Source: Squalus acanthias
Taxonomy: Eukaryota
Length of the DNA: 64,000 nucleotides
Direction of reading: 5' to 3'
Assembly (NCBI GenBank): GCA_030390025.1
Contig: CM059431.1
Location: 102,922,001 to 102,986,000 of the forward strand
Part shown: piece by piece, positions 9,483-36,754 of the stretch
How the letters are laid out: each line of letters opens with the position of its first letter
Numbering within the stretch: the first letter of the stretch is position 1
Translations under genes and position numbers: made by a program
The notes under the pieces: model-generated
The model's database searches: none
Told to the model about the DNA's origin: nothing
Seen by the model: only the letters and a program-made list of their open reading frames with translations

Positions 9483-11500
9483 ATAGAGTCCAAGATCTTA
9501 GAGAAGATAGAGATAAACAGCGATAGAGCCATTAAAAAGAAAACTGGATTACTTACACGTAGAAGGAAATTGGACCAGATGGAATGTATCCAAGAACACT
9601 GAAGAAATTAAAGTAGAAATAATGAGAGCTGTGGGTGATGTATTTCACAGTTCATTAAGTACAGCGGAAATGCCACCAGATTGGAAAATGAAAATGTTGA
9701 TCTAATTCCTTTTTTAAAAAAGGTCAGGAGCATAATCCTGGGAATTATAACTCAGTTAACTTGAGATCTTTAGTCTGTTATAAAGAAAGAAAGAAAGACT
9801 TGCATTTATATAGCGCCTTTCACAATCTCAGGACGTCCCAAAGCGCTTTACAGCCAATGAAGTACTTTTTGAAGTGTAGTCGCTGTTGTAATGTAAAGGA
9901 ATTCATTCAACCATTTTTAACAAGCGTAAAGGTAGTAATCCAGATCAATGTGGATTTATTAAAGACTTGCCATACCTGTCAAATTATGGGGAATTACTCG
10001 AATATAGAACAGAATTGCAGATGATAGGATAATGGATGAAATATATCTTGACTTGACAGATGAAATTCAAAGTAGAGAAGTGCAAAGAGCTTCACATAGA
10101 GATGGAAAATCCAGGAAGGGACTTTTACTTAAATTGGAAGAAAATAATGTGCATGGAAAATTAAAGAGATCTGGGGGGAAAAATTCAGTATCGCCCTGTT
10201 TGGGGCGCAATTATCGGCCAGGCGCAAAGATTAGCGCCTGGCGCTAATTATCGCCTCCGACTGCAAACTTGACTTTTATCGCCCCTGGAGGTGATTGGAG
10301 CGCTAAATCAAGTGCTACACATCTGTCTTAAGGCGCAAAGGCCGAGGAGCGAGGCGCTAACTCAGAGCACTGGCGAAGCTCATGTGATGTCAGTCAGCAA
10401 TGGAACACAGACACAATGGCCCCGGCCAGTTCTTAAAGGGGAGGGTTGATCTTGCTTTCCATCCACATCCTGCTCATTGCAGCCTTGAATCTCGGCCTGG
10501 AGAGACCTCGACATCAAATGTGCTGGAAAGAACAATGGAAAGAGCTCAGAGTGCAGCCCCCACAGTCTCTTCTAAATCGATACAAGGAAGGGCAAATCAA
10601 AATGAACCTGCAAAGTGCTGCTCAGTACCCAAAACTCCTTCACACAGCGTTGAATCTCTCCAGAAGTCTCTCTCTCTCTCTCTCTCTCAGAATGCGTGGT
10701 TCAAAAATGTCGCCAACAAAAAAAGGCAGGAAGCGGTCGCCTTTAAATAGCGCTCCCCCAGTCCCTTCCTGACTGCAAAACGCTCCCCTCAACCTGTCGT
10801 TGCTAGCGGCAGGCGGTAAGGCAGGGAGCGCCACTCAATATCCGCTCCGGGGCGCTACCGGGGCATTGCGCACTCGACTGACGTCACGATCTGCCGGCGC
10901 AGGAGTTCGTGGCGGTAGTGTTTAGCGCCACCGCAAAATGTCTAGTTAATTTTGCGAGTGGCGCAAACATTGCCGCGCCCGGGCGCTAGTTGCTTTGCGC
11001 CCCATTAGCGCCCTCTTAAGGCGCTTACGGGAGGCGCAACCAACTGAATTTTCCCCCCCCTGATGTCCTGATTGACAATAAATTGAAGCTATCGCAGCAA
11101 TGCTCAGTGGCAGTGAGTAAAGCAAATCAAATGATGGGATGTAACAAAAGGTCAATATTGAGCCAAAATAGTAAGGTAATCCTGCCACTTTATAAATCAT
11201 TGGTGCGACCCCACTTCGAATACTGTGTACAGTTCCGGTCACCTTACTACAGAAAGGATATTGCAACTATTTGAAAGGATACAGAAAAGAGCAACCAGAA
11301 TGATTGAGGGGATGGAAGGATTGGATTATCAGGAGCGATTGTGTAAATTGTGCTTGTTCTCACTGGAAAAGAGAAGGTTGAGAGGTGATATGATTTTTAG
11401 GATTCTAAAGGGACGAGATAATGTTGACCACGACAAGCTGTCTCACCTTGTCCAGAACAGTAGAACCAGAGGACACGACCTGTGCTTGAAGGGGTTAAAT
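9483..11500 (+). mobile_element. Old degraded CR1 split by a SINE tail (9785..9895) and a MITE (10173..11060)
   Basis: LYKSLVRPHFEYCVQF, FSLEKRRLRGDMI, RTRGH remnants; 3' remnant resumes near 12700. Confidence 0.75.
10173..11060. mobile_element. MITE family B (G-run TIRs, PIF/Harbinger-like)
   Basis: ggggggaaaaattcagt ... actgaattttcccccc; plausible 3-bp TSD ctg; near-identical copy at 16002..16902. Confidence 0.88.
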
Positions 11501-13980: not shown

Positions 13981-15065
13981 TGTCCCCCCCCCACCACCCC
14001 AAATAAAATTGCCTTTAAATTATCATAGAATCGTGCAGCACGGAAGGAGGCCATAGATAACATAAAAGCTGCAAAGAATATACACAGATATCAGTAAGAA
14101 AAGTTCTGTTGCTACCCATGCAGAGCTGGGTTTACTGAGGGCACCTGTAGTTCAGGTCCACAGTCAGATTGGGTGTTTTGAACTTGGTCGTTTGACTCAG
14201 TTACAAACCGTGTTTCAGTGCTTCCAGGCTCCACTTTCATGTCTGGGAGCTCTGTGACATTAAGCTCCATTTTGACTTCTTGACTCTGGGCTCTGTGAAG
14301 GAGCTATCCAATTAGTCCCACTCCCCCTGCTTGTTCCCCCTAGCCCTGCAAATCTCTTTTCGCTTACTTCCTTTATTCTCTCTCCACCAGTTCTGGGGAT
14401 TAGGAACAAGTTCGGAATGATAATTTCCGTTGGCTGCGAACCAGGGAGGTCACTTCCTCAGCATTTCAGCCGTTGGCACAGAGAACAAATGGAAGCATTT
14501 CTCTTTAATTAACGGGCCTGCTAATGAAGTCGCACAAACGCACAGCTTGAAATGTACGATTTGCTGAGAATCAGATCCTCTTACCAGGTCGCTAATTACA
14601 GAGGGAAACAGACAGCCTCCTGGTTTTATTTTTTGCGTGAAAAGAGCTGTTTCACCCCCATGGGGTCTTCTCGAAGCTCAGTTTTACACCTTCTACTGAT
14701 CTCGTACAGAACTTCTCTCATTATTCTGCAAGTAAAACATGCAGTTCAATGGAACTGGAAAATAGGGGCATAATCGGAATCATATACACCAATATGATAC
14801 TGCGCTCAAATTAACCCTCTGGGGTCCACTTTGGTTCACCAGCACATTGTGCTCTCATATTCATTTCTGTTACTTGATTCCAAAAGCTCTGTATACATTT
14901 TGCAGAAGAACCCCTGTATACAAATGAACTCTCCACCAGCATGGCTGTGGGAATAAATAAGTGTGTAACGCATATTGTTCAGTAAAAGGCATAATTAAAC
15001 CAGGGTTTGCAATTGACTATTTTAATGTTGAACTTTAGTTACATTGCAATGATCATTTTTATTTA

Positions 15066-15282
15066 TGATGTGGAGATGCCGGTGTTGGACTGGGGTGGAC
15101 AAATGTGAGAAGTCGCACAACACCAGGTTATAGTCCAACAGCTTTATTTGAAATCACAAGCTTTCGGAGCGGCTGCTCCTTCGTCAGGTGAAGTGCTGAC
15201 GAAGGAGCAGCCGCTCCGAAAGCTTGTGATTTCAAATAAAGCTGTTGGACTATAACCTGGTGTTGTGCGACTTCTCACATTT
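15066..15282. mobile_element. Palindromic Penelope-like terminal remnant (two inverted hammerhead-bearing ends)
   Basis: 87-bp perfect inverted repeat 15101..15187 / 15196..15282; homologous to 31197..31325; 12-bp TSD catttttattta (15054, 15278). Confidence 0.92.
15154..15191 (-). ncRNA. Minimal type I hammerhead ribozyme motif
   Basis: UCAC-CUGACGA-A-GGAG/cagccg/CUCC-GAAA-GC-UU-GUGA. Confidence 0.75.
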
Positions 15283-15434
15283 TTATTTAGATCCAGGAAT
15301 CTATTTTTGTAAGCAGTCTTACTTTTATGGGTGTTGACTCACACTGCGCTATATTTACTTGTGCGGGGTGTAACAATATCAACATTGAGTTCAACAATTT
15401 CAGATCACAACCTCTGCCCCCATTTTCTCAGACA

Positions 15435-15770
15435 GCAGGTGCTGGCAGTGATTCTGCTGTTGCCATTTACACCTCCTCTAGACCCATCTTTTGTTTCTTT
15501 ACTTGTCCCATTACCGCCCCCTTTTGCCTCGCACCATCATCCCTTTTGTCTCTTAATCTCTCCTGCCTTCCATCCTATCACAGACCTTCCCTTTTGTTCT
15601 TTCCTCCCCTCTCCCCTTTCCCGCCCTCTGCACTTGCTTAAAAACCTGTTACATCTCTCACTTCTTCCAGTTCTGACGAAAGGGCATCGACCTGAAACGT
15701 TGACTCTGTTTCTCTCTCTCCGCAGATGCTGCCTGACCCGCCGAGCGTTTCCAGCATTTTCTGTTCTTAT
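15435..15770 (+). mobile_element. Penelope-derived family 2 element
   Basis: Pyrimidine-rich body, CTGACGA at 15673...GAAACGTT; matches 50..415 and 20511..20841. Confidence 0.75.
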
Positions 15771-16001
15771 TTGTAACAATGATATCCTCGTGTGACCTGA
15801 ACTGGATATTGGTGTCTTTCACACTGTGCGTTTCTTCAATTACTCTAAAGGCGGACCAAGTTCACACTTGGTGAGATGAGGTCTGATATGAATTTATGAG
15901 CTAATTCATAGGAACACAGGAACAGGAGGAGGCCATTCAGCCCCTCGAGCCTGTTCCGACATTCAATGAGCTCATGGCTGATCTGTATCCTAACTCCATT
16001 T

Positions 16002-16902
16002 GGGGGGAGAAATTCAGTATCGCCCCATTTGGGGCGCAAATATCGGCCGGGCGCAAAGATTAGCGCCTGGCGCTAATTATCGCCTCCGACTGCAAACTTG
16101 ACTTTTATCGCCCCTGGAGGTGATTGGGGCGCTAAATCAGGCTCGACTCATCTGTCTTAAGGCGCAAAGGCCGAGGAGCGAGGCGCTAACTCAGAGCGCT
16201 GGCGAAGCTCATGTGATGTCAATCAGCAATGGAACACAGACACAATGGCCCCGGCCAGTTCTTAAAGGGGAGGGTTGATCTTGCTTTCCATCCACATCCT
16301 GCTCATTGCAGCCTTGAATCTTGGCATGGAGAGACCTGTACAACAAATCTGCTGGAAAGAACAATGGAGAGACCCAGGGAAAGAGCTCAGAGTGCAGCCC
16401 CCATAGTCTCTTCTAAATCGATACAAGGAAGGGCAAATCAAAATGAACCTGCAAAGTGCTGCTCAATACTCAAAACTCCTTCACACAGCGTTGAATCTCT
16501 CCAGAAGTCTCTCTCTCTCTCTCTCTCTCTCAGAATGCATGGTTCAAAAATGTCACCAACAATAAAAGGCAGGAAGCGGTCGCCTTTAAATAGCGCTCCC
16601 CCAGTCCCTTCCTGACTGCAAAACGCTCCCCTCAACCTGTCGTTGCTAGCGGCAGGCGGTAAGGCAGGGGGCACCACTCAATATCCACTCCGGGGCGCTA
16701 CCGGGGCATTGCGCACTCGACTGACGTCACGATCTGCCGGCGCAAGAGATCGTGGCGGTAGTGTTTAGTGCCGCCGCAAAATGTCTAGTTAATTTCACGA
16801 GCGGCGCAAACATCGCCGCGCACAGGCGCTAGTTGCTTTGCGCCCCATTAGCGCCCTCTTAAGGCGCTAACGGGAGGCGCAACCAACTGAATTTCCCCCC
16901 CC
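16002..16902. mobile_element. MITE family B copy, inserted in a CR1 3' end (15907..17208, minus)
   Basis: Same TIRs and body as 10173..11060. Confidence 0.88.
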
Positions 16903-20148: not shown

Positions 20149-20927
20149 GTGTCTGCTGTGGCTCAGTGGGTAGTCACTCTCGCCTCAGAGTCAGAAGGTT
20201 GTGGGTTCAGAGTCCCACTCCAGGGCATTGTGCACATAAAGCTAGGAGTGCTGCACTGTCGGAGGTGCCGTCTTTCGGATGAGACGTTAAACCGAGGCCC
20301 TGTCTGCTCTCTCAGGTGGACGTAAAAGATCCCGTGGCACTATATCGAAGAAGAGTAGGGGAGTTATCCCTGGTGTCCTGGCCAATATTTAACCCTTAAC
20401 CAACATAAAAAACCCCAGATTATCTGGTCATTTATCTCATTGCTGTTTGTGGGGCCTTGCTGTGCGCAAATTGACTGCCGCATTTCCGACATTACAACAG
20501 TGACTACACTCTCTCACATGGCAGCTGTCGATCATTCTGCCATTGTCATTTAGAGTCATCTTTTGTTTCTTAACTTGTCCCATTACCATCTCCTTTTGCC
20601 TTGCACCATCATCCCTTTTGTCTCTTAATCTATCCTGCCTTCCATCCTATCACAGACCTTCCCTTTTGTTCTTTCCTCCCCTCCCCACTTTCCCTGTCCC
20701 TACACTTGCTTAAAAACCTGTTCCATCTCCAGCTTTTTCCAGTTCTGACGAAGGGTCATCGACCTGAAACGTTAACTCTGTTTCTCTCTCCACAGATGCT
20801 GCCTGACCTGCTGAGTATTTCCAGCATTTTCTGTTTTTATTTACTCCAAAAGTACTTCATTGGCTGGAAAGCGCTTTGAGACGTCCAGTGGTCGTGAAAG
20901 ACGCTATATAAATGCAAGTCTTTCTTT
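20149..20927 (+). mobile_element. Deu-domain SINE interrupted by a family 2 Penelope-derived element (20511..20841)
   Basis: SINE breaks after gtgactacact and resumes at actccaaaagtacttcattggc. Confidence 0.85.
20741..20777 (+). ncRNA. Minimal type I hammerhead ribozyme motif (family 2)
   Basis: AGUU-CUGACGA-A-GGGUC/auc/GACCU-GAAA-CG-UU-AACU. Confidence 0.72.
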
Positions 20928-26397: not shown

Positions 26398-28145
26398 AAT
26401 AGATCAGCCTGTAGGGAGGTAATCTGGCATGAATGTACTGGGGAGAGATAAGGAGAAGGCCATAACGGTTTCTCATTAGTGATTAAACAGATGTTGTTGC
26501 GCAGACTCGTTGAAGGGAAACTTACCAGACGTAGTTAGAACGCGTTGACATGATGGCACTACATTAGGAGGACGTCATTAAACATCTAAAGACATAGACC
26601 CTGGGGACTTTTTGATCTAGTCTTGCTAAGGCTAGTGTAAGCAGGCAAGGTGACATGCTTTCGATCTCCTGAAGGAGTCCCTGATACGTGAGTTATAATG
26701 TTACAATCGGTACCTATTATCTCATATGCACTGCATATGAGGGGTTTTGTTTTATTATCTTATTCACTGGATTTAATAAAGTGTATTAACCAGATGTTTC
26801 AATGTTTCCTAGTCCTCAAACTTGTATTAGTGGTAAAGGATATATGGCAATATCCTATAATACCCCACATAAGGACAATGGGGATATATGGCAATATCCT
26901 GTAATACCCCACATAAGGACAATGGGGATATTTGGCAATATCCTGTAATACCCCACATAAGGACAATGGGGATATATGGCAATATCCTGTAATACCCCAC
27001 ATAAGGACATAGATACATAGAAGATAGGAGCAGGAGTAGGCCATCCGGCCCTTCGAGCCTGCTCCGCCATTTAATGAGATCATGGCTGATCCTCCAATTC
27101 AGTATCCCGTCCCCGCCTTCTCTCCGTAACCCTTAACCCCTTTTGCCTGTAGAAATATATCTAATTCCCTCTTAAATATATTTAATGAGCTGGCGTACAC
27201 TGCCCTCTGTGGCAATGAGTTCCACAGGTTCACCACCCTCTGAGTGAAGAAATTCCCCCTCATTTCTGTCCTAAATGGTTTAGCCCTTATCCTTAAATTA
27301 TGTCCTCTAGTTCTGTTCTCACCCGCCAAGGGAAACATTCCTTCTGCATCTAGTCTGTCTAGACCTGTCAGAATTTTATACACTTCTATGAGGTCCCCTC
27401 TCAATCTTCTAAACTCCAGTGTGTACATCCCTAAACTACATAGTCTCTCCTCATAGGTCAATCCCGCCATTCCTGGTATCAGCCTGGTGAATCGCCGCTG
27501 CACCCCCTCCATGGCAAGAACATCTTTCCTCAGATGAGGCGACCAAAACTGTACACAGTACTCGAGGTGTGGTCTCACCAGTGCCCTGTACAGCTGCAGC
27601 AAGGTATCCCTGTTCCTGTATTCCAACCCTTTTGCTATGAAGGCCAGCATACCGTTTGCCTTCTTGACCGCCTGTTGCACCTGCATGCTCGCCTTCAGTG
27701 ACTGGTGTACAAGAACACCCAGGTCTCTCTGTACTTCCCCCTCTCCCAATTTATTGCCATTTAAATAATAATTTGCCCTCCCGTTCCTGCACCCAAGGTG
27801 GATAACTTCGCACTTGTCCACATTATAGTGCATCTGCCATTTATCCGCCCAATCACCCAGTCTGTCCAAATCGCTCTGGAGCTTCCTGGTCTCCTCCTCT
27901 GAGCCCACCCCCCCTCCTAGTTTAGTGTCGTCTGCAAATTTGGAAATGCTGCATCCGACTCCCTGATCCAGGTCATTAATGTAAATTGTGAACAGCTGGG
28001 GACCCAGGACAGATCCCTGTGGTACCCCACTTGTTACTGCCTGCCATTCAGAAAATGAGCCGTTTATTCCAACTCTCTGTTTTCTATCTGACAAAATTGA
28101 GAGGTCGCACAACACCAGGTTATAGTCCAACAGTTTTATTTGAAA

Positions 28146-28183
28146 TCACAAGCTTTCGGAGCTATCACTCCTTCCTCAGGTGA
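28146..28183 (-). ncRNA. Minimal type I hammerhead ribozyme motif, 3' pLTR
   Basis: UCAC-CUGAGGA-A-GGAG/ugauag/CUCC-GAAA-GC-UU-GUGA, followed by AAUAAA. Confidence 0.78.
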
Positions 28184-28517
28184 AGTAAATTGGATACAGA
28201 ATCGCCAGAGCATATATAGATGGAAAAAAAAGCATGTGTACTTTACAATTGCAGACCAATAAATTAAATCATCCTGACTATCTGCCGAGGTGTGATAAAG
28301 TTAATTAAGTCAGCCAGGAAGGTACCACATCAAAAGACATAGCAAGATACAACTGAGACAATGAGGTGTAGTCGCAGGGGTTCCAACGTGTCAAAAGCTG
28401 CTGTCTGTATGTAAAACGAAAAGCTTTAAAAAAAAATTTACTTTTTTACTGGGAAAATTTTTACTTTTTTACTGGGAATCACATCTGTGAACAAGCTAAC
28501 GACGACTCGAGTCCGGA

Positions 28518-31196
28518 TCACGTCATGTATCGTGACATAAACCCAAGATCCCGATTGAGACCGTCTTCATGAGTTCGGAACTTGGCTATCAGTTTCTGCT
28601 CGATGATTTTGCGTTGTCGTGTGTTTCTAAGGTTGCCTTGGAGAACGCTTACCCGCAGATCCGAGGCTGAATGTCCTTGACTGCTGAAGTGTTCCCCGAC
28701 TGGGAGGTAACAATCCTGCCTGGCGATTGTTGCGCGGTGCTCGTTCATACGTTGTCTCAGTGTCTGCATGGTCTCGCCGATGTACCATGCCGCGGTGCAT
28801 TCTTTCCTGCAACGTATGAGGTAGACAACGTTGGCCGAGTCACATGAGTATGTACCATGTACCTGGTGGGTAGTGTCCTCACGTGTGATGGTGGTATCTG
28901 TGTTGATGATCTGGCATGTCTTGCAGAGTTTGCCATGGCAGGGTTGTGTGGTGTCGTGGTCGCTGTTATCCTGAAAGCTGGGTAATTTGCTGCGAACGAT
29001 GGTACTTCTGAGGTTAGGCGGCTGTTTGAAGGCAAGTAGTGGAGGCGTGGGGATGGCCTTAGCGAGGTGTTTGTCGTCATCGATGACATGTTGAAGGCTG
29101 CGAAGAACATGTCGTAGTTTCTCCGCTCCGGGGAAGTACTGGACGACGTAGGGTACCCTGTTGGTTGTGTCCCGTGTTTGCCTTCTGAGGAGGTCTATGC
29201 GATTTTTCGCTGTGGCCCGTCGGAACTGTCGATCGATGAGTCGAGCGTCATATCCCGTTCTTACGAGGGCGTTTTTCAGCGTCCGTAGGTGTCCATCGCG
29301 TTCCTCCTCGTCTGAGCAGATCCTGTGTATTCGCAGGGCTTGTCCATAGGGGATGGCTTCTTTAACATGGTTAGGGTGGAAGCTGGAGAAGTGGAGCATC
29401 GTGAGGTTGTCCGTGGGCTTGCGGTAGAGTGAAGTGCTGAGGTGTCCGTCTTTGATGGAGATTCGTGTGTCCAGGAATGAGACCGATTCTGAGGAGTAGT
29501 CCATGGTGAGTTTGATGGTGGGATGGAACTTGTTTATGTTATCGTGTAGTCTTTTCAGTGATCCTTCGCCATGGGTCCAAAGGAAGAAAATGTCGTCGAT
29601 GTATCTGGTGTACAGCGTTGGCTGGAGGTCCTGTGCAGCGAAGAAGTCTTGCTCGAACTTGTGCATGAAGATGTTGGCGTATTGGGGTGCGAATTTGGTC
29701 CCCATGGCTGTTCCGTGTGTTTGGGTAAAAAAATGGTTGTCGAAGGTGAAGACATTATGGTCAAGGATGAAGCGGATGAGTTGTAGGATGGCGTCTGGAG
29801 ATTGGCTGTTGTTGATGTTGAGTACTGAGGCTGTTGCAGCGATGCCGTCATCGTGGGGGATACTGGTGTAGAGTGCCGATACGTCCATCGTGGCAAGGAG
29901 TGTTCCTGGTTCAACTGGTCCGTGGGTGCTGAGTTTCTGTAAGAAGTCTGTAGTGTCGCGACAGAAGCTGGGGGTTCCCTGTACGATGGGTTTCAGAATG
30001 CCCTCGACGTATCCAGAGAGGTTCTCACACAGGGTTCCATTGCCTGATACGATAGGACGTCCGGGTGTGTTGGCTTTGTGTATCTTTGGGAGGCAGTAGA
30101 AGTCTCCCACGCGGGGAGTACGTGGGATGAGAGCGCGTAGGATGTTTTGAAGGTCTGGATCGAAGGTCTTGATCAGTCTATTGAGTTGGCGGGTGTGTTC
30201 TTTGGTCGGATCTGCGGGTAGCTGTCTGTAGTGTTCCTGGTTGTCCAGTTGTCGGTATGCTTCTTTACAATAGTCCGTTCTGTTCTGTATGACGATGGCT
30301 CCTCCTTTGTCCGCTGGTTTGATGACAATGTTGCGGTTGGTCTTGAGAGCGTGGATGGCGTTGCGTTGTGCTCGGGTGACATTCTGGACTGTCTTGTGAG
30401 TGCGGCTGATGAATCTGGCGTTGATGCATTTCCTGACAGCTTGAGCATACATGTCAAGCTTGGGGCAGCGACCCTCCGGAGGGGTCCAGTTTGACTCTTT
30501 TTTCTTCGGTTGCTGCACTGCGAGTCCCTCTGTCTGCTGTTCTGGATCATTGATTGTCTCATTGGGTTTGTTGCTGACATCTTGGGATTTGTGGAAGTAT
30601 TCCCGGAGCCTCATTCTCCTGATGAATTCCTCCGTGTCTGCCGCGAGACCGATGGGGTCCATTTTGGTGGTTGGGCAGAACTTGAGCCCTAGGGCGAGAA
30701 CTTCGATTTCGTCTGGTTGAAGGGTGTGGTCCGACAGGTTGACGATGGACTTCCCTGTGGTTGCAACCATGGTACCGGGGGAGGCTTGGTTGCTGCTGGT
30801 GGTGATGCCGAGTTTCTCAAGCTTCCTGTTCTTGATGCGCATGTAGGCAGCGTAGTTCCGTTGCCTCGTCTGTTTGGTGGTGTCTCGTAACTGGTCTGCT
30901 GTGTCCTGAGCACAGGCTGAGAGCATGGACTCTATCTTGGTTTCGAGGTTGTGGCGTTTGCTGTAGAGCTGGTGTACGAGATGGTTGAGGAGTGTGCGAG
31001 AGGTACGACGGCAGAGTCTCTCAGCGTAGTCTGTGTTGTATGTCGACTTGAGTGGGTTCGTGATCTGTAGTCCTTTCGGGATCTTGTCTGCTTTCTTGCA
31101 TCTCTGTAGATACTTGATGTCGGTGTCGATATGCGCGATCTTCTTGGCGATTCTCTCCACTTTGAGCCGGCAGTTTGTGGTGTCGATAGTGGTCAT
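28518..31196 (-). CDS. Penelope-like RT / GIY-YIG endonuclease polyprotein, 892 aa from first ATG (frame open from TTG at 31268)
   Basis: IKPADKGG, LPKIHK, PGRPIVS, MDVSALYTSIP, GTAMG, RYIDDIF, FLD; Zn finger PCHGKLCKTC; VVYLIRC...WYIGET...LRQRMNEH...IEQKLI...GLN; no internal stops. Confidence 0.96.
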   Translation of the reverse strand: MTTIDTTNCRLKVERIAKKIAHIDTDIKYLQRCKKADKIPKGLQITNPLKSTYNTDYAERLCRRTSRTLLNHLVHQLYSKRHNLETKIESMLSACAQDTADQLRDTTKQTRQRNYAAYMRIKNRKLEKLGITTSSNQASPGTMVATTGKSIVNLSDHTLQPDEIEVLALGLKFCPTTKMDPIGLAADTEEFIRRMRLREYFHKSQDVSNKPNETINDPEQQTEGLAVQQPKKKESNWTPPEGRCPKLDMYAQAVRKCINARFISRTHKTVQNVTRAQRNAIHALKTNRNIVIKPADKGGAIVIQNRTDYCKEAYRQLDNQEHYRQLPADPTKEHTRQLNRLIKTFDPDLQNILRALIPRTPRVGDFYCLPKIHKANTPGRPIVSGNGTLCENLSGYVEGILKPIVQGTPSFCRDTTDFLQKLSTHGPVEPGTLLATMDVSALYTSIPHDDGIAATASVLNINNSQSPDAILQLIRFILDHNVFTFDNHFFTQTHGTAMGTKFAPQYANIFMHKFEQDFFAAQDLQPTLYTRYIDDIFFLWTHGEGSLKRLHDNINKFHPTIKLTMDYSSESVSFLDTRISIKDGHLSTSLYRKPTDNLTMLHFSSFHPNHVKEAIPYGQALRIHRICSDEEERDGHLRTLKNALVRTGYDARLIDRQFRRATAKNRIDLLRRQTRDTTNRVPYVVQYFPGAEKLRHVLRSLQHVIDDDKHLAKAIPTPPLLAFKQPPNLRSTIVRSKLPSFQDNSDHDTTQPCHGKLCKTCQIINTDTTITREDTTHQVHGTYSCDSANVVYLIRCRKECTAAWYIGETMQTLRQRMNEHRATIARQDCYLPVGEHFSSQGHSASDLRVSVLQGNLRNTRQRKIIEQKLIAKFRTHEDGLNRDLGFMSRYMT

Positions 31197-31283
31197 GATG
31201 CGGAGATGCCGGTGTTGGACTGGGGTGGACAAAATTGAGAGGTCGCACAACACCAGGTTATAGTCCAACAGTTTTATTTGAAA

Positions 31284-31321
31284 TCACAAGCTTTCGGAGC
31301 TATCACTCCTTCCTCAGGTGA
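31284..31321 (-). ncRNA. Minimal type I hammerhead ribozyme motif, 5' pLTR
   Basis: Identical to 28146..28183, about 90 nt upstream of the ATG. Confidence 0.78.
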
Positions 31322-33707
31322 AGTAAATTGGATACAGAATCGCCAGAGCATATATAGATGGAAAAAAAAGCATGTGTACTTTACAATTGCAGACCAATAA
31401 ATTAAATCATCCTGACTATCTGCCGAGGTGTGATAAAGTTAATTAAGTCAGCCAGGAAGGTACCACATCAAAAGACATAGCAAGATACAACTGAGACAAT
31501 GAGGTGTAGTCGCAGGGGTTCCAACGTGTCAAAAGCTGCCGTCTGTATGTAAAACGAAAAGCTTTAAAAAAAAATTTACTTTTTTACTGGGAAAATTTTT
31601 ACTTTTTTACTGGGAATCACATCTGTGAACAAGCTAACGACGACTCGAGTCCGGATCACGTCATGTATCGTGACATAAACCCAAGATCCCGATTGAGACC
31701 GTCTTCATGAGTTCGGAACTTGGCTATCAGTTTCTGCTCGATGATTTTGCGTTGTCGTGTGTTTCTAAGGTTGCCTTGGAGAACGCTTACCCGCAGATCC
31801 GAGGCTGAATGTCCTTGACTGCTGAAGTGTTCCCCGACTGGGAGGTAACAATCCTGCCTGGCGATTGTTGCGCGGTGCTCGTTCATACGTTGTCTCAGTG
31901 TCTGCATGGTCTCGCCGATGTACCATGCCGCGGTGCATTCTTTCCTGCAACGTATGAGGTAGACAACGTTGGCCGAGTCACATGAGTATGTACCATGTAC
32001 CTGGTGGGTAGTGTCCTCACGTGTGATGGTGGTATCTGTGTTGATGATCTGGCATGTCTTGCAGAGTTTGCCATGGCAGGGTTGTGTGGTGTCGTGGTCG
32101 CTGTTATCCTGAAAGCTGGGTAATTTGCTGCGAACGATGGTACTTCTGAGGTTAGGCGGCTGTTTGAAGGCAAGTAGTGGAGGCGTGGGGATGGCCTTAG
32201 CGAGGTGTTTGTCGTCATCGATGACATGTTGAAGGCTGCGAAGAACATAACCTGGACTATAACCTGGTGTTGTGCGACCTTTCTATCTGACAGCCAGTTC
32301 TCTATCCACGTCAATACTTTCCCCTTTATCCCATGAGCTTCAATTTTCCATGCTAATCTTTTATGTGGGACCTTATCGAAGGCCTTTTGGAAGTCCAGGT
32401 ACACCACATCTACTGGCTCTCCCCCATCTATTTTACCAGTTACTCCCTCAAAAAATTCCAATAGATTAGTCAAGCACGATTTACCCTTTGTAAATCCATG
32501 TTGACTCTGTCCTATCCTGTCCCCATTTGCTAAGTGCTCCGCTATTTCATCCTTAATGATGGACTCCAGCATTTTGCCCACAACTGATGTAAGGCTTACA
32601 GGTCTGTAATTACCTGCTTTTTCCCTACCCCCCTTTTTTGAATAGTGGGGTAACGTTAGCTACCCTCCAATCCATGGGCACTGTTCCCGAGTCTAATGAA
32701 TTCTGAAAAATCATACTTAGTGCATCCGCTATCTCTAGGGCCACCTCCTTCAGTACCCTAGGATGCATGTTATCAGGCCCTGGGGATTTGTCCGCCTTCA
32801 ATCCCTTTAGCTTCCTTAACACCATATCCTTAGAGATATTGATTTGCGTCAGTTCCTCCTTTGCCAATGTCCCTATTTTTCCCGATATCCCAGGGAGGTT
32901 TTTTGTGTCTTCCTTCGTAAAGACTGACCCAAAGTATGCATTTAGTTGGTCTGCCATTTCCTTATTTCCCGTTATATATTCCCCCGTATCTGACTGCAAT
33001 GGACCAACTTTGGTTTTCACCAGTCTTTTCCTCTTGATATACTTATAAAAGCTTTTGGAGTTAGTTTTTATATTTTCCGCCAGCTTGCTTTCGTAAGCTA
33101 TTTTGCCCCTCTTGATTAAGCCCTTTGTCCTCCTTTGCTCTATCTTAAACTGTTCCCAATCTTCCGCTCTGGCGCTTTTTTTGGCTATTTTATATGCCCT
33201 ATCTTTGGATTTTATGCTGTCTCTAATTTCCCCTGTTATCCACGGTTGAGTCACCTTTTTAGATTTCCTTTTATGCCAGATTGGTATAAACAATTTTTGC
33301 AATTTTGTCATTCTATCTTTAAATGCTTGCCATTGTTTATCTACCTCCAGTCCTCCCAGGAACGTTGTCCAATCAGACCTACTCAGTTCCCGTCTAATGG
33401 CATCATAATTCCCCTTGTTTAAATTCAGGACCTTAGTCTCTGAGTCAATTTCTTCGTTCTCCATTTCGAGTGAGAAATCGATCATGTTATGATCGCTCTG
33501 ACCCAAGGGTCCCCGTACAACAAGATTACTAATTAGTCCCTTCTCATTGCACAGTACCCAGTCCAATATAGCCTGTTCCCGAGTTGGTTCCTCGACATAT
33601 TGATCCAGATAACCATCCCTTAAACACTCAATGGGGATATTTGGCAATATCCTGTAATACCCCACATAAGGACAATGGGGATGTATGGCAATATCCTGTA
33701 ATACCCC

Positions 33708-34519
33708 TGTAAGAATAAGACATTTGCTGTAAGAATTTGCTGTAACTTGACCAAACTTAAAAAGTTGACCGAATTTAATATACCAGCATGCTTCGGGCGG
33801 TTGAGAGGTTGGTTCCTGTGGGAACTTTGTACGAAAGCTGTTCATCAGATATGGAAGCGACAGACCCTGAGCAGGAACAAACAGCTGGGCGTTACAAAGA
33901 CCGGAACATCTTCAGGCAACCTGTGTGAACGGCTTTGGGGCCCACTGATAAGAAGAGGAAAACAACTGCCGACCATTTGTCACACAGTTTGGGACACACA
34001 CGCATTGAGGAGCCTGCCCAGGTTTGTAGGGTATAAGAGATGCTGTTTTAAGACACTCGGGGCTGCTCCAGTCAGGGGGAGCAACTTGGCCAGTTGCCTG
34101 TTGAAGTCGTACGTCTAGTCACTGCCAAACTGACCACTCGCTGGTGTTAGTACGTACGTAGTGTTGGCTTATAATCGTTTGAGCTTAAAGTAAAGGAATA
34201 AACCTGTGTTTGCTCAGATATAATCGGGAGTTATATATGCAACAGTTTTGTGTGAGCTTACTTGTAACCTCTTGCTGATTTTAAGTAACTTATTTTCGCT
34301 TGATCTTAAAGTAAGAGAATAAATCTTGTGTCTGCTTAGATATAATCAGGAGTATTATATCCAAAGGGTTTGTGTGAGCTCACTTGTAACCTCTTGCTGA
34401 TTTTAATAAAAAGAAAGTTATTCTCGAATCTTTGTGTTTTGTGTTGTCTGTTCCACGAGTCTGAACTTTGGAAACTGTTGGACGGATTAAAGGACAAGGG
34501 CGAATTTAAACATCTTACA
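33708..34519 (+). mobile_element. Solo LTR (812 bp) inserted in the 44-bp array
   Basis: Inverted termini TGTAAGA / TCTTACA, 4-bp TSD cccc, TATA-like gtataag near 34031, three AATAAA. Confidence 0.92.
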
Positions 34520-36754
34520 CCCCACATAAGGTCAATGGGGATATATGGCAATATCCTATAATACCCCACATAAGGTCAATGGGGATATATGGCAATATCC
34601 TATAATACCCCACATAAGGTCAATGGGGATATATGGCAATATCCTGTAATTCCCCACATAAGGACAATGGGGATATATGGCAATATCCTGTAATTCCCCA
34701 CATAAGGACAATGGGGATATTTGGCAATATCCTGTAATACCCCACATAAGGGCAATGGGGATATATGGCAATATCCTATAATACCCCACATAAGGTCAAT
34801 GGGGATATATGGCAATATTCTAGTTAAATTCGACAATGACCAGACCATCTAGGGAGTTGAGTGACTACTTGGATCTCAACCCTTTTGGTCTCCAGCTGGC
34901 AATCTAAAGATGTCGGTCATTCCCTAGACCAGTACTAGCGGAGCACACAGCAGTGGTCTCCCAGAATGTAGCTGTTCCCTCAGGGGCCCAGACTGAATCA
35001 TGTGATCATCATGTGTCTTTCATAGAATCCTAGAATCTTATGGCGCAGAAGGAGGACATTCGGCCCGTCGTGGATGTGCCGGCTCTTTGAAAGAGCTATC
35101 CAAGGGAATCAAGGGATATTGGGATCGGGCGGGAAAGTGGAGTTGAGGTTGAAGGTCAGCCATGATCTTATTGAATGGTGGAGCAGGTTCGAGGGGCCAT
35201 ATGGCCTACTCCTGCTCTTATTTCTTATGCTCTTAGTCCCACTCCCCCTGCTCTTTCACCATAGCCCAGCAAATTTTCTCCCCTTCAAATATTTCTGAAA
35301 TTTTTAATATTTGGGTGACAGTTCCATCCTCAGTTGTAAAATTTTTTTTGACTTGATTGAAGTGGAAACTGCTCTTGCACCTCAACACAAATTGTGCTAA
35401 CCCAGAGGAATGAAACGTTTGAGTCAGGACATTGGAGGTTAAGTTGTGACCCAGGAACTTTCATACATAGTCTATGCTGACACACTTGGTAGAAAACTCA
35501 CTATTGAAACTAAAACTAGAAGTATTTTTGTGCAGCGAGTGATGTGGGCATTACAGGAGGAGTGCTTTGTTTATCGAGAGAGGACTTTCAACTCTCTTAT
35601 CCGATTCCTTTTAAAAGACAATGGAAGCACTTGAATAGCACAGAGACTACGAGGTTTTCAAATTGAAGTGTATTGTTGTCCAGTCAACCAGACCCATAAA
35701 TCCCTTGATCCAGTGATGGCTTTTGAAATTGAAATCAGATAATATGACTGTAGGATAAAACCAGGAAAAGAAAGTTTTGCAGATATTTCCGGGGTTTAGC
35801 AACTCAATTAGTGCCTAAAAAGTGGGCACTATACACAAGAAGATTGGGCGCTAATCTTTTGCCCCCATTCAGGCTGGTCTTGTCAAGAAAAGTCTTTACA
35901 TTTGGCTCTTTTGATTAGAAATGGTTTCGCTACTTCATGATGTAGCTGCAGAATGTTGTAATTCTTTTTCATCACTGATGGATACCGCAGTTGTTACCAT
36001 GGTTCCCCGCCGCCCCCCCTCCACCCCCCACCATTTGGCAAAACGGCTTATTTAGAGACAGACGTGAAGCAACAGGCACAATTATTTATTATGCCAACAA
36101 GGTGATTGGCAAAAGAGCCAGAGGGGAGATGAGGAAACATTTTTTTTAATGCAGAGAGTTGTTGTGATCTGGAACGTGCTGCCTGAAAGGGCGGTGGAAG
36201 CAGATTCAATAGTAACTTTCAAAAGGGAATCGGATAAATACTTGCAGGGAAAAAAATTACAGGGCTCTGGGGAAAGAGCAAGAGGCGTGGGACTAATTGG
36301 AGAGCTCTTTCAAAGAGCCGGCACAGGCACGATGGGCCGAATGGCCACCTTCTGAGCTGTATGATTCTATGATTCTTGATGAGTTTAACAGAAAGATGTG
36401 GGTTATTGTGATCAATATGAAATTGATGGCATGCTGCCGATCTATTACATTTGGTGCTACTTTTTGTCAAAAGCACCTTTTAAAATCGCAAACAGTATCC
36501 ATAAACCTCTGCATGATTTCTACATTACCTATAATAGGAGAGTCAATAAAATTCCCAAGTATTTGTTCGAAGGGTAATATGGCTGCAAAATCCCAGACGT
36601 CGGTTGTTCCATGACCCTTTAATCAGCTTTGGGTCTGTAAAGCCTGTCAGCCGGGATGAAGTTATACTGACGAGGGTCAGCAGGAGGTCCCAGCTCCAAT
36701 TCGTTGCTGGTACGTCACACGCCCCCAGGGAGTGACCACCCAGGAAAATCACAC

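What the first reader, a model, noticed from the sequence alone, without database searches (positions are those of the whole stretch)
28081..32292. Intact, very young Neptune-type Penelope element with full integration footprint
Seen: uninterrupted 892-aa RT-ZnF-GIY-YIG ORF; ~1020-bp tandem terminal repeats in which I saw one mismatch (28402 T vs 31540 C); 13-bp TSD with GACA microhomology to the element end; stuttered inverted 5' tip (ataacctg + ggactataacctggtgttgtgcgacct). Established: partial tandem pLTRs and inverted ends are PLE hallmarks, and a Zn finger between RT and EN marks the Neptune group. Inference: a potentially active vertebrate source element.
Basis: partly seen in the sequence, partly recalled or inferred. 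Interest (0 to 1): 0.7.

Follow-up and report, generated by a model that had tools for sequence, protein, structure and literature searches.

The report
Intact shark Penelope-like jumping gene
This is a complete, recently inserted copy of a Penelope-like jumping gene in a shark-like genome, built to the already described plan for such elements, so it is a good specimen for experiments rather than a new kind of system.

Summary
It is a 1.33-unit partial-tandem Penelope-like element of Neptune architecture, inserted into a young CR1 LINE; its closest named proteins are from sharks (80-95%). All of this is the textbook PLE plan. 'Very young' holds only relatively: at the one shark mutation rate I found, 1/1021 means about 7e5 generations (2e4-4e6), or zero if the mismatch is not post-insertion. 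The lineage was under purifying selection (19 synonymous, 14 non-synonymous) and no catalytic residue is lost, so competence is plausible; transcription, mobility and polymorphism are not shown. The family is abundant, and this scan already noted other intact young PLE copies in the same genome and palindromic stumps in another shark genome (unchecked notes). One lead: 3 of 3 short-end junctions pair with the target, the one long-end junction does not. New member of a known kind; interest 0.3.

The parts
28081..28093 (.). Target-site duplication, left copy (last 4 nt, GACA, also match the element's 3' end)
28090..29110 (-). Downstream (3') pseudo-LTR, 1021 bp = last 593 nt of the ORF + 428-nt 3' UTR; ends at the 'short' end, without tail
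28146..28183 (-). Minimal hammerhead ribozyme motif, 3' copy (helix I 4 bp, CUGAGGA, unpaired A, helix II 5 bp, GAAA-GC-UU)
28518..31196 (-). Single ORF, 892 aa: helical N-terminus, telomerase-like RT, linker Zn finger, GIY-YIG endonuclease
29202..30389 (-). RT core (about aa 270-665; DKGG, motif 3 D438, GTAMG 495, YIDD 532-535)
28842..28940 (-). Linker Zn-finger-like motif C753-x4-C-xx-C-x23-C785 (Neptune-type spacing)
28554..28829 (-). GIY-YIG endonuclease with CCHH motif and R, H, E, N residues (aa 790-881); low model confidence here (pLDDT mostly under 60)
31195..31231 (-). 37-nt 'tail' between the short and the long 3' end of the family; doubles as the 5' UTR and ends in the AT of the start codon
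31228..32248 (-). Upstream (5') pseudo-LTR = 5'-truncated second unit, 1021 bp; presumed promoter (inferred from Penelope, not tested)
31284..31321 (-). Minimal hammerhead ribozyme motif, 5' copy; predicted cut 91 nt before the ATG
32247..32280 (+). Stuttered inverted tip: 9-nt re-copied piece plus 28-nt inverted copy of the element's 3' region
32280..32292 (.). Target-site duplication, right copy
27010..33629 (-). Host CR1 LINE (5'-truncated ORF2), interrupted in its RT by the element; reads in frame across the empty site; frameshifted at a homopolymer near 32634; itself inside a 44-bp tandem array
15054..15288 (.).

Best explanation
A recently inserted, structurally complete copy of an abundant shark family of endonuclease-bearing Penelope-like retrotransposons of Neptune architecture. 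The unit is a 3138-bp monomer (tail/5' UTR, ORF, 3' UTR with minimal hammerhead). SHOWN: the anatomy, the insertion into a young CR1, the family's 5'-truncated abundance, two recurring 3' ends about 37 nt apart. INFERRED (from PAc biochemistry and PLE genomics): the protein binds a more-than-unit (or circular) RNA, the GIY-YIG domain nicks both target strands about 13 nt apart, and the RT starts inside the RNA just upstream of the AUG; one target end primed a 4159-nt cDNA (1.33 units), the other end was joined through a 28-nt inverted copy that slipped once, and microhomologies of 1-3 nt closed the junction. The extra third of a unit restores an upstream pseudo-LTR, which is why this copy could act as a source. 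It is as old as, or younger than, typical shark polymorphism, and whether it is transcribed or moves today is unknown.
For: Anatomy. Fold closest to TERT, ranks 1-14. 105 of 120 listed homologues carry GIY-C-C-YIG, all 105 after the RT, 101 of 105 with the full linker. Hammerhead motif: 4 scan hits in the window vs 0 in 20 shuffles; 4 pattern matches vs 0 in 100 shuffles; sense-strand hit in 28 of 79 related loci vs 2 antisense and 0-2 in 5 shuffle rounds. Depth falls from tail to ORF 5' end in all three contig runs (X13: 1112, 41, 4). Long end at 31195 in both the sister copy and 3 raw reads of organism F. 19 synonymous: 14 non-synonymous differences, expected share 0.23-0.33, p 1.5e-5 to 0.004. 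Differs at 6 of 311 columns fixed in close relatives, none catalytic. Same layout in PMC8557442 sect. 6 and PMC3846280.
Against: No contig or read was seen across the locus-specific junction (truncated lists). Best runs hold 0.86-0.89 of the words, not all, and window letters at 29757 and 30769 were absent from X3 contigs (55% of the run read). The 'RNA' label of X8 is a guess and its depth follows the genomic copy gradient. Pfam found RT only, not GIY-YIG, for this protein, and the EN part of the model is low-confidence. An open frame is weak evidence of competence: it survives 0.2% neutral divergence with probability 0.57-0.82. No labelled Neptune reference was in the tree.
Confidence: 0.88

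Rival explanations
1. Same element, but an old, fixed and silent copy: it only looks new because sharks mutate slowly; the family is no longer moving.
For: 1 mismatch in 2x1021 sites gives about 7e5 generations, upper bound 3.9e6, at 7e-10 per generation (rate from PMC10587355, another species). Four organism labels hold 57-89% of its 31-mers. 16127 of 24456 laid X3 contigs are under 99% alike (whole stretch with CR1 flank).
Against: Repeat divergence (0.001) is half the within-species diversity reported for that shark (0.002); CpG o/e 0.87; host CR1 only 0.2-0.6% from its family contigs; 8329 of 24456 contigs at 99% or more; the sister palindrome's arms are 87/87 identical.
Confidence: 0.4
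2. The inverted tip is not a second priming on the RNA but fold-back: the growing cDNA annealed to its own start, copied it, slipped, and jumped to the far target end by microhomology.
For: Gives the same sequence; AT overlap is self-complementary; self-priming was proposed for PLE inverted junctions (PMC3846280); the sister palindrome has a hairpin-like centre.
Against: The second target end matches the RNA continuation at 6 of 9 positions (p about 0.015, post hoc); PAc cuts and extends both strands in vitro (PMC11167929).
Confidence: 0.4
3. The tandem repeat is an assembly artefact or a post-insertion segmental duplication.
For: Near-identity of the repeats; no spanning read seen; repeat-dense region.
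Against: A clean TSD restores the CR1 reading frame; the monomer junction is crossed by family contigs and by the sister copy; partial tandems are the PLE norm; the one mismatch is a CpG transition.
Confidence: 0.04
4. The family moved recently between species by horizontal transfer.
For: Organisms A-D hold 57-89% of words; X13 (organism C) contigs are 99.0% alike (22 differences in 2240 nt, 6 records).
Against: In X13 the unrelated host CR1 subfamily is equally near-identical and equally shallow (depth 35-67) while other CR1 copies reach depth 1e5, which fits low-level foreign DNA or close kinship better; named shark proteins fall off in steps (Heptranchias 87-95%, Scyliorhinus 81-87%, Mustelus 81-83%).
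Confidence: 0.1

Closest known systems
Neptune-clade PLEs (Neptune-1_Ac, DrerioNep1, Neptune1_Nv; PMC8557442 Fig. S1-S2 rows read; killifish repeat.CL27, PMC12602865 passages)
   Same: RT followed by CX2-5CxxC linker and CCHH GIY-YIG; linker spacing 23 aa vs 25-27; RT motif 4 GTAMGxxFAPxYAN (12 of 17 residues equal to DreriNep1, counted by eye); partial tandem, hammerhead in the pLTR.
   Different: A shark family; no paper naming it was found (0 papers; Repbase not searchable). Direct sequence identity to the named Neptunes was not computed.
PAc, Poseidon element of Anolis carolinensis (PMC11167929, parts 1-2 of 4 read)
   Same: Single RT-EN ORF, tandem pLTRs, hammerhead, two RT start sites bounding a 30-40-nt tail, both strands cut and extended.
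   Different: PAc lacks the linker Zn finger; its hammerhead overlaps the ORF start and its start sites lie inside the ORF, whereas here the hammerhead cut is 91 nt upstream of the ATG and the tail ends at the ATG; PAc initiates without target homology, whereas the short ends here overlap the target by 4-5 nt.
Minimal hammerheads of metazoan PLEs (PMC4209133, parts 1-2 of 4 read)
   Same: Short helix I, unpaired base before helix II, G-C at its base, palindromic AGCU in place of helix III, one per pLTR about 3 kb apart; reported there for fish Neptune, Poseidon and Xena.
   Different: Helix II is 5 bp rather than 7-8; cleavage untested here.
Pen2/Pen2a of Adineta vaga (PMC3846280, passages)
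   Same: Full-length plus 5'-truncated unit in partial tandem inserted into a non-LTR element; inverted pLTR, 8-10-bp TSDs, 31-bp optional tail, microhomology at the 5' junction.
   Different: Different host and family; inverted part here is only 28 nt and stuttered.
Nematis and Naiad PLEs (PMC8557442)
   Same: Share the linker Zn-finger motif and CCHH.
   Different: Nematis linker is reduced (7 aa in 3 rows read); Naiad has the endonuclease at the N-terminus and lacks the canonical hammerhead.

Membership tests
EN+ Penelope-like elements | Single ORF with telomerase-like RT | tested here: met
   RVT_1 E 1.4e-8; model's top 14 PDB ranks are all TERT; sequence search of PDB gave only weak group II-type hits, E 0.1-0.7
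EN+ Penelope-like elements | GIY-YIG endonuclease with CCHH motif | tested here: met
   VVY790-C796-C800-YIG805, R, H, H, E, N located by motif and alignment against the rows of Fig. S2; Pfam GIY-YIG did not score on this protein though it is listed for many homologues
EN+ Penelope-like elements | Pseudo-LTRs from partial tandem, inverted 5' piece, TSD | tested here: met
EN+ Penelope-like elements | Hammerhead motif in the pLTR | tested here: met
   (motif only; cleavage untested)
EN+ Penelope-like elements | Optional 30-40-bp tail | tested here: met
   37 nt between ends at 31231 and 31195, from the focal copy, the sister copy and 3+3 reads of organism F; few junctions
EN+ Penelope-like elements | Spliceosomal intron in the 5' UTR (some families) | tested here: inconclusive
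   No splice-type joint listed for X8; 25 joints not shown and the RNA label is a guess
Neptune clade | C-terminal EN with full-length CX2-5CxxC linker | tested here: met
   C-x4-C-xx-C-x23-C; 92 of 101 linker-bearing homologues have 23-26 aa; named Neptune rows 25, 25, 27 (by eye)
Neptune clade | RT phylogeny groups with reference Neptunes | tested here: inconclusive
   Tree of 118 RT regions had no labelled references; motif 4 nearest to Neptune rows by eye, motif 3 ties with a Nematis row at 13 of 28; the paper itself finds Neptune paraphyletic
Penelope/Poseidon clade | No Zn finger between RT and EN | tested here: not met
   Linker motif present at aa 753-785
Nematis clade | Reduced linker | tested here: not met
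   23 aa vs 7 aa in 3 Nematis rows
Naiad/Chlamys clade | N-terminal endonuclease, DKA, no canonical hammerhead | tested here: not met
   EN is C-terminal, DKG present, hammerhead present
Active source element | Own transcript, daughter copies, polymorphic or de novo insertions | not testable with these tools
   No genome; contigs cannot show strand, level or absence

The most novel reading that the evidence does not exclude
Neptune-type elements integrate by two primings on one short RNA window with two rules: a homology-free start fixed at the AU of the start codon, and an upstream start whose register is chosen by base-pairing with the cut target (4/4, 5/5 and 6/9 matches in the three short ends seen). 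That would differ from the only PLE studied in vitro, explain the tail, the inverted tip and the stutter in one step, and this intact copy with both hammerheads would be a ready substrate for the first biochemistry of a Neptune protein from a family that may still be moving in sharks.
Probability: 0.3. Interest if true: 0.55.

Novelty: new member of a known kind. Interest (0 to 1): 0.3.

Why it matters
PLE integration is still poorly understood: in the papers searched only one full-length protein, a Poseidon, has been reconstituted, and Neptunes are called poorly characterised. A complete vertebrate Neptune with readable junctions is a usable reagent and its junctions suggest a testable difference in priming. 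It is also a caution: in sharks near-identical terminal repeats do not by themselves mean present-day activity, and an empty-site test here is confounded because the flanks are a multicopy CR1.

Tried and rejected
Whole-genome work: no genome held. Rfam at gathering threshold: 0 matches in 64 kb, so the minimal hammerheads are below Rfam's models. A structured tail: two alternative 9-bp helices can be drawn around the short end, but 5 of 5 folds were not clearly better than shuffles (z -1.57 to +0.27); rejected as evidence. Intron: no splice-type joint seen, inconclusive. More junctions of this family from public collections: 0 matches in metagenome and 0 in viral contigs; the protein scan gave only 29-49% relatives. 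Empty-site contigs in X8 (loose end equals 28051-28080) rejected as evidence of polymorphism, because neighbouring CR1 contigs run at depth 800-1200 with 0-2 differences, i.e. paralogues. Cruder motif counts (94 RT-EN, 7 apparent EN-RT; 69 RT-EN, 51 unclassified) were artefacts of loose patterns and are replaced. Small-share runs X19 and X20 and unlaid runs are not used as evidence. PMC9977147 passages did not bear on PLE junction homology. Look-up of earlier notes by sequence and near this place gave nothing.
Full report
OBSERVATION. The minus strand holds an 892-aa frame at 28518-31196. Comparing the window with itself at offset 3138 gives one run, 28090-29110 against 31228-32248 (1021 bp), with a single mismatch, 28402 T / 31540 C; the C is in a CpG. 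The 13-mer TTTCTATCTGACA flanks the insert at 28081-28093 and 32280-32292 and occurs nowhere else in the window; its last four bases also continue the element. The 5' end carries a 9-nt piece and a 28-nt inverted copy of the element's own 3' region, joined by overlaps of 2, 3 and 1 nt. Removing the insert and one TSD copy leaves a CR1 reverse-transcriptase frame open across the site, so this is a real insertion into a LINE, which in turn sits in a 44-bp tandem array.

WHAT IT IS. The unit is a 3138-bp monomer; the insert is 1.33 units (4159 bp) plus the tip. The protein scores as RVT_1 only, but its predicted fold (mean pLDDT 74.9; EN region weak) ranks telomerase RTs in places 1-14 of the PDB search, the PLE hallmark. 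Of 226 homologues 120 were listed; the nearest named are shark proteins: Heptranchias perlo 87-95%, Scyliorhinus torazame 81-87%, Mustelus asterias 81-83%, so the host is inferred to be a shark; the exact protein is not in the collection. 105 of the 120 have a GIY-C-C-YIG motif, all after the RT, and 101 of those 105 have the full linker, 92 of 101 with 23-26 residues before the last Cys. In the supplement of PMC8557442 (part 54 of 59 read) named Neptune rows have 25, 25 and 27, Nematis rows 7, Penelope/Poseidon none; ours has 23. The paper states that the Zn finger is shared by Neptune, Nematis and Naiad and that Neptune is paraphyletic (passages). My RT tree (118 sequences) places the query with the shark proteins (support 0.96) but had no labelled references, so clade membership by phylogeny is open; by architecture it is Neptune.

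(1) A minimal hammerhead motif in each repeat (28146-28183, 31284-31321): 4 hits of my descriptor in the window (these two, one arm of a sister copy, one in another repeat) against 0 in 20 shuffles; 4 pattern matches against 0 in 100 shuffles; the local fold gives helices I and II as predicted. It matches the description in PMC4209133 (parts 1-2 of 4 read), which reports such motifs in fish Neptunes. In 79 loci of distant relatives 28 have a sense-strand hit, 2 an antisense hit, and 0-2 in five shuffle rounds (several loci are near-duplicates and many lack flank); where a motif precedes the first Met closely it is 70-170 nt away in 5 loci, against 91 nt here. (2) A palindromic mini copy of a sister subfamily at 15054-15288 with an 11-bp TSD and arms 87/87 identical; one arm ends at the position equal to 31195, the AT of the start codon, the other at 31231. 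Three raw reads of organism F also leave the element at 31195 and three at 31238 (56 reads laid). The 37 nt between the two ends is the PLE tail described in PMC8557442 section 6 and tied to two RT start sites in PMC11167929 (parts 1-2 of 4 read).

FAMILY AND AGE. 18 of 24 listed runs hold half or more of the monomer's words, under four organism labels and one unlabelled run. I laid 4 of them on 29111-33500. Depth falls steeply from the tail to the 5' end of the ORF in all three contig runs (X13 1112, 41, 4; X8 133900, 9885, 107), the profile of an abundant 5'-truncated family; the tool warns that this is no copy number. The window copy is about 1% from the long contigs (X13 22 of 2240 nt in 6 records; X8 10 of 964 nt in 3 of 4 listed records, the fourth, with 15 differences in 144 nt, left out as a diverged copy). 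Of the 40 difference rows shown (114 in all), 13 lie in the repeat and are shared by both copies, so they were inherited from a parent element; position 31540 is not among the rows shown. 32 rows plus one from the joint table lie in the ORF: 19 synonymous, 14 not, against an expected synonymous share of 0.23 (0.33 for transitions), p 1.5e-5 and 0.004 (two codons carry two rows each). The protein differs at 6 of 311 columns fixed in close relatives, none catalytic. CpG observed/expected is 0.87 in the element, 0.55 in the window and 0.38-0.49 in the host CR1. The host CR1 is itself 0.2-0.6% from its family contigs. So the copy is young relative to its family. In absolute terms, at 7e-10 per site per generation (epaulette shark, PMC10587355, passages) one mismatch means 7e5 generations, Poisson range 1.8e4-3.9e6, wider with the rate's own interval, and zero if the mismatch is an RT error, inherited or an assembly error. 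That divergence is half the diversity within that species (0.002), so polymorphism is possible but not implied.

ACTIVITY. Not shown. X8 holds contigs across the ORF, but its RNA label is a guess and its depth mirrors the genomic gradient. A contig of X8 crosses the empty site, but neighbouring CR1 contigs at depth 800-1200 with 0-2 differences show near-identical paralogues, so short reads cannot genotype this insertion. No listed record spanned the 5' junction (lists truncated). Earlier notes of this scan, unchecked, describe another intact young PLE and a 3.3-unit intact array in the same genome, so this copy is unlikely to be the only candidate source. Neptune subfamilies described as active are published for killifish (PMC12602865, passages), and a preprint finds Neptune and Poseidon in five vertebrate classes (10.64898/2026.07.22.740005, parts 1-2 of 5 and passages; supplements closed).

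MECHANISM. Shown: anatomy and ends. Inferred: staggered nicks about 13 nt apart leave two 3' ends; one, ending GACA, pairs with the RNA at the short site and primes 4159 nt of cDNA on a more-than-unit or circular template; the other, which matches the RNA continuation at 6 of 9 positions (p about 0.015, post hoc), primes 28 nt, slips back once through a 3-nt repeat and joins through AT. Fold-back of the first cDNA onto its own start gives the same letters and remains about as likely; self-priming was proposed in PMC3846280 (passages), which also shows the same layout in a rotifer. Chance of the exact 4- and 5-nt overlaps is about 0.002-0.003 each, but both were noticed after the fact, targets are AT-rich, and only four junctions are in hand (three short ends with pairing, one long end without). 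PAc starts without homology in vitro; the long end agrees with that, the short ends may not. The tail's possible helices did not beat shuffles.

NOVELTY. Searches found no paper naming this shark family or reconstituting a Neptune protein; the library lacks most subscription journals and Repbase. Every structural feature is described for PLEs. Verdict: new member of a known kind, interest 0.3; the paired-priming reading has probability 0.3 and would deserve 0.55.

Noticed in passing
window 15054-15288: Head-to-head palindromic mini insertion of a sister subfamily (about 90% alike), two hammerhead cores, 11-bp TSD, arms 87/87 identical, one long and one short end.
   Followed up: yes
window 26838-33718 and 34519-34822: Three-level nest: 44-bp tandem array, interrupted by a young CR1, interrupted by the PLE; a further 6.9-copy array of the same unit lies 0.8 kb beyond.
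   Followed up: partly
window 32634-32639: Host CR1 frame shifts at a homopolymer where family contigs are one base shorter: post-insertion mutation or long-read error.
   Followed up: partly
window 20737-20785 (+); related repeats 82-417, 15449-15772, 20519-20842: A different minimal-hammerhead-like motif inside a third short repeat family, probably the end of another PLE family.
   Followed up: no
run X13 laid on window 29111-33500: Organism C holds both this PLE and the host CR1 subfamily near-identical at depth 4-67, while other CR1 copies reach about 1e5: low-level foreign DNA, close kinship or transfer, unresolved.
   Followed up: partly
window 31206-31270 (-): The tail's AGUCCAACACCGG can pair with either of two upstream 9-mers, and a pyrimidine run plus CAG 30 nt before the ATG resembles a splice acceptor; AATAAA lies just after the hammerhead cut. 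Folding was not better than shuffles and no splice joint was seen.
   Followed up: partly
proteins P0013, P0128: RefSeq models of Heptranchias perlo epn2 and a divergent protein kinase domain 2Ab isoform include long stretches of this PLE protein: exonisation or annotation error.
   Followed up: no
L002, L012, L072/L074/L075: Distant relatives in metagenome contigs show paired sense-strand hammerheads 3.4-4.0 kb apart with varied but paired helix II; some use the U3-A8 core.
   Followed up: partly
window 10169-11059 and 15998-16902; 34168-34406: A 0.9-kb repeat pair at 94% identity with similar short ORFs, and a two-copy 122-bp tandem; not identified.
   Followed up: no
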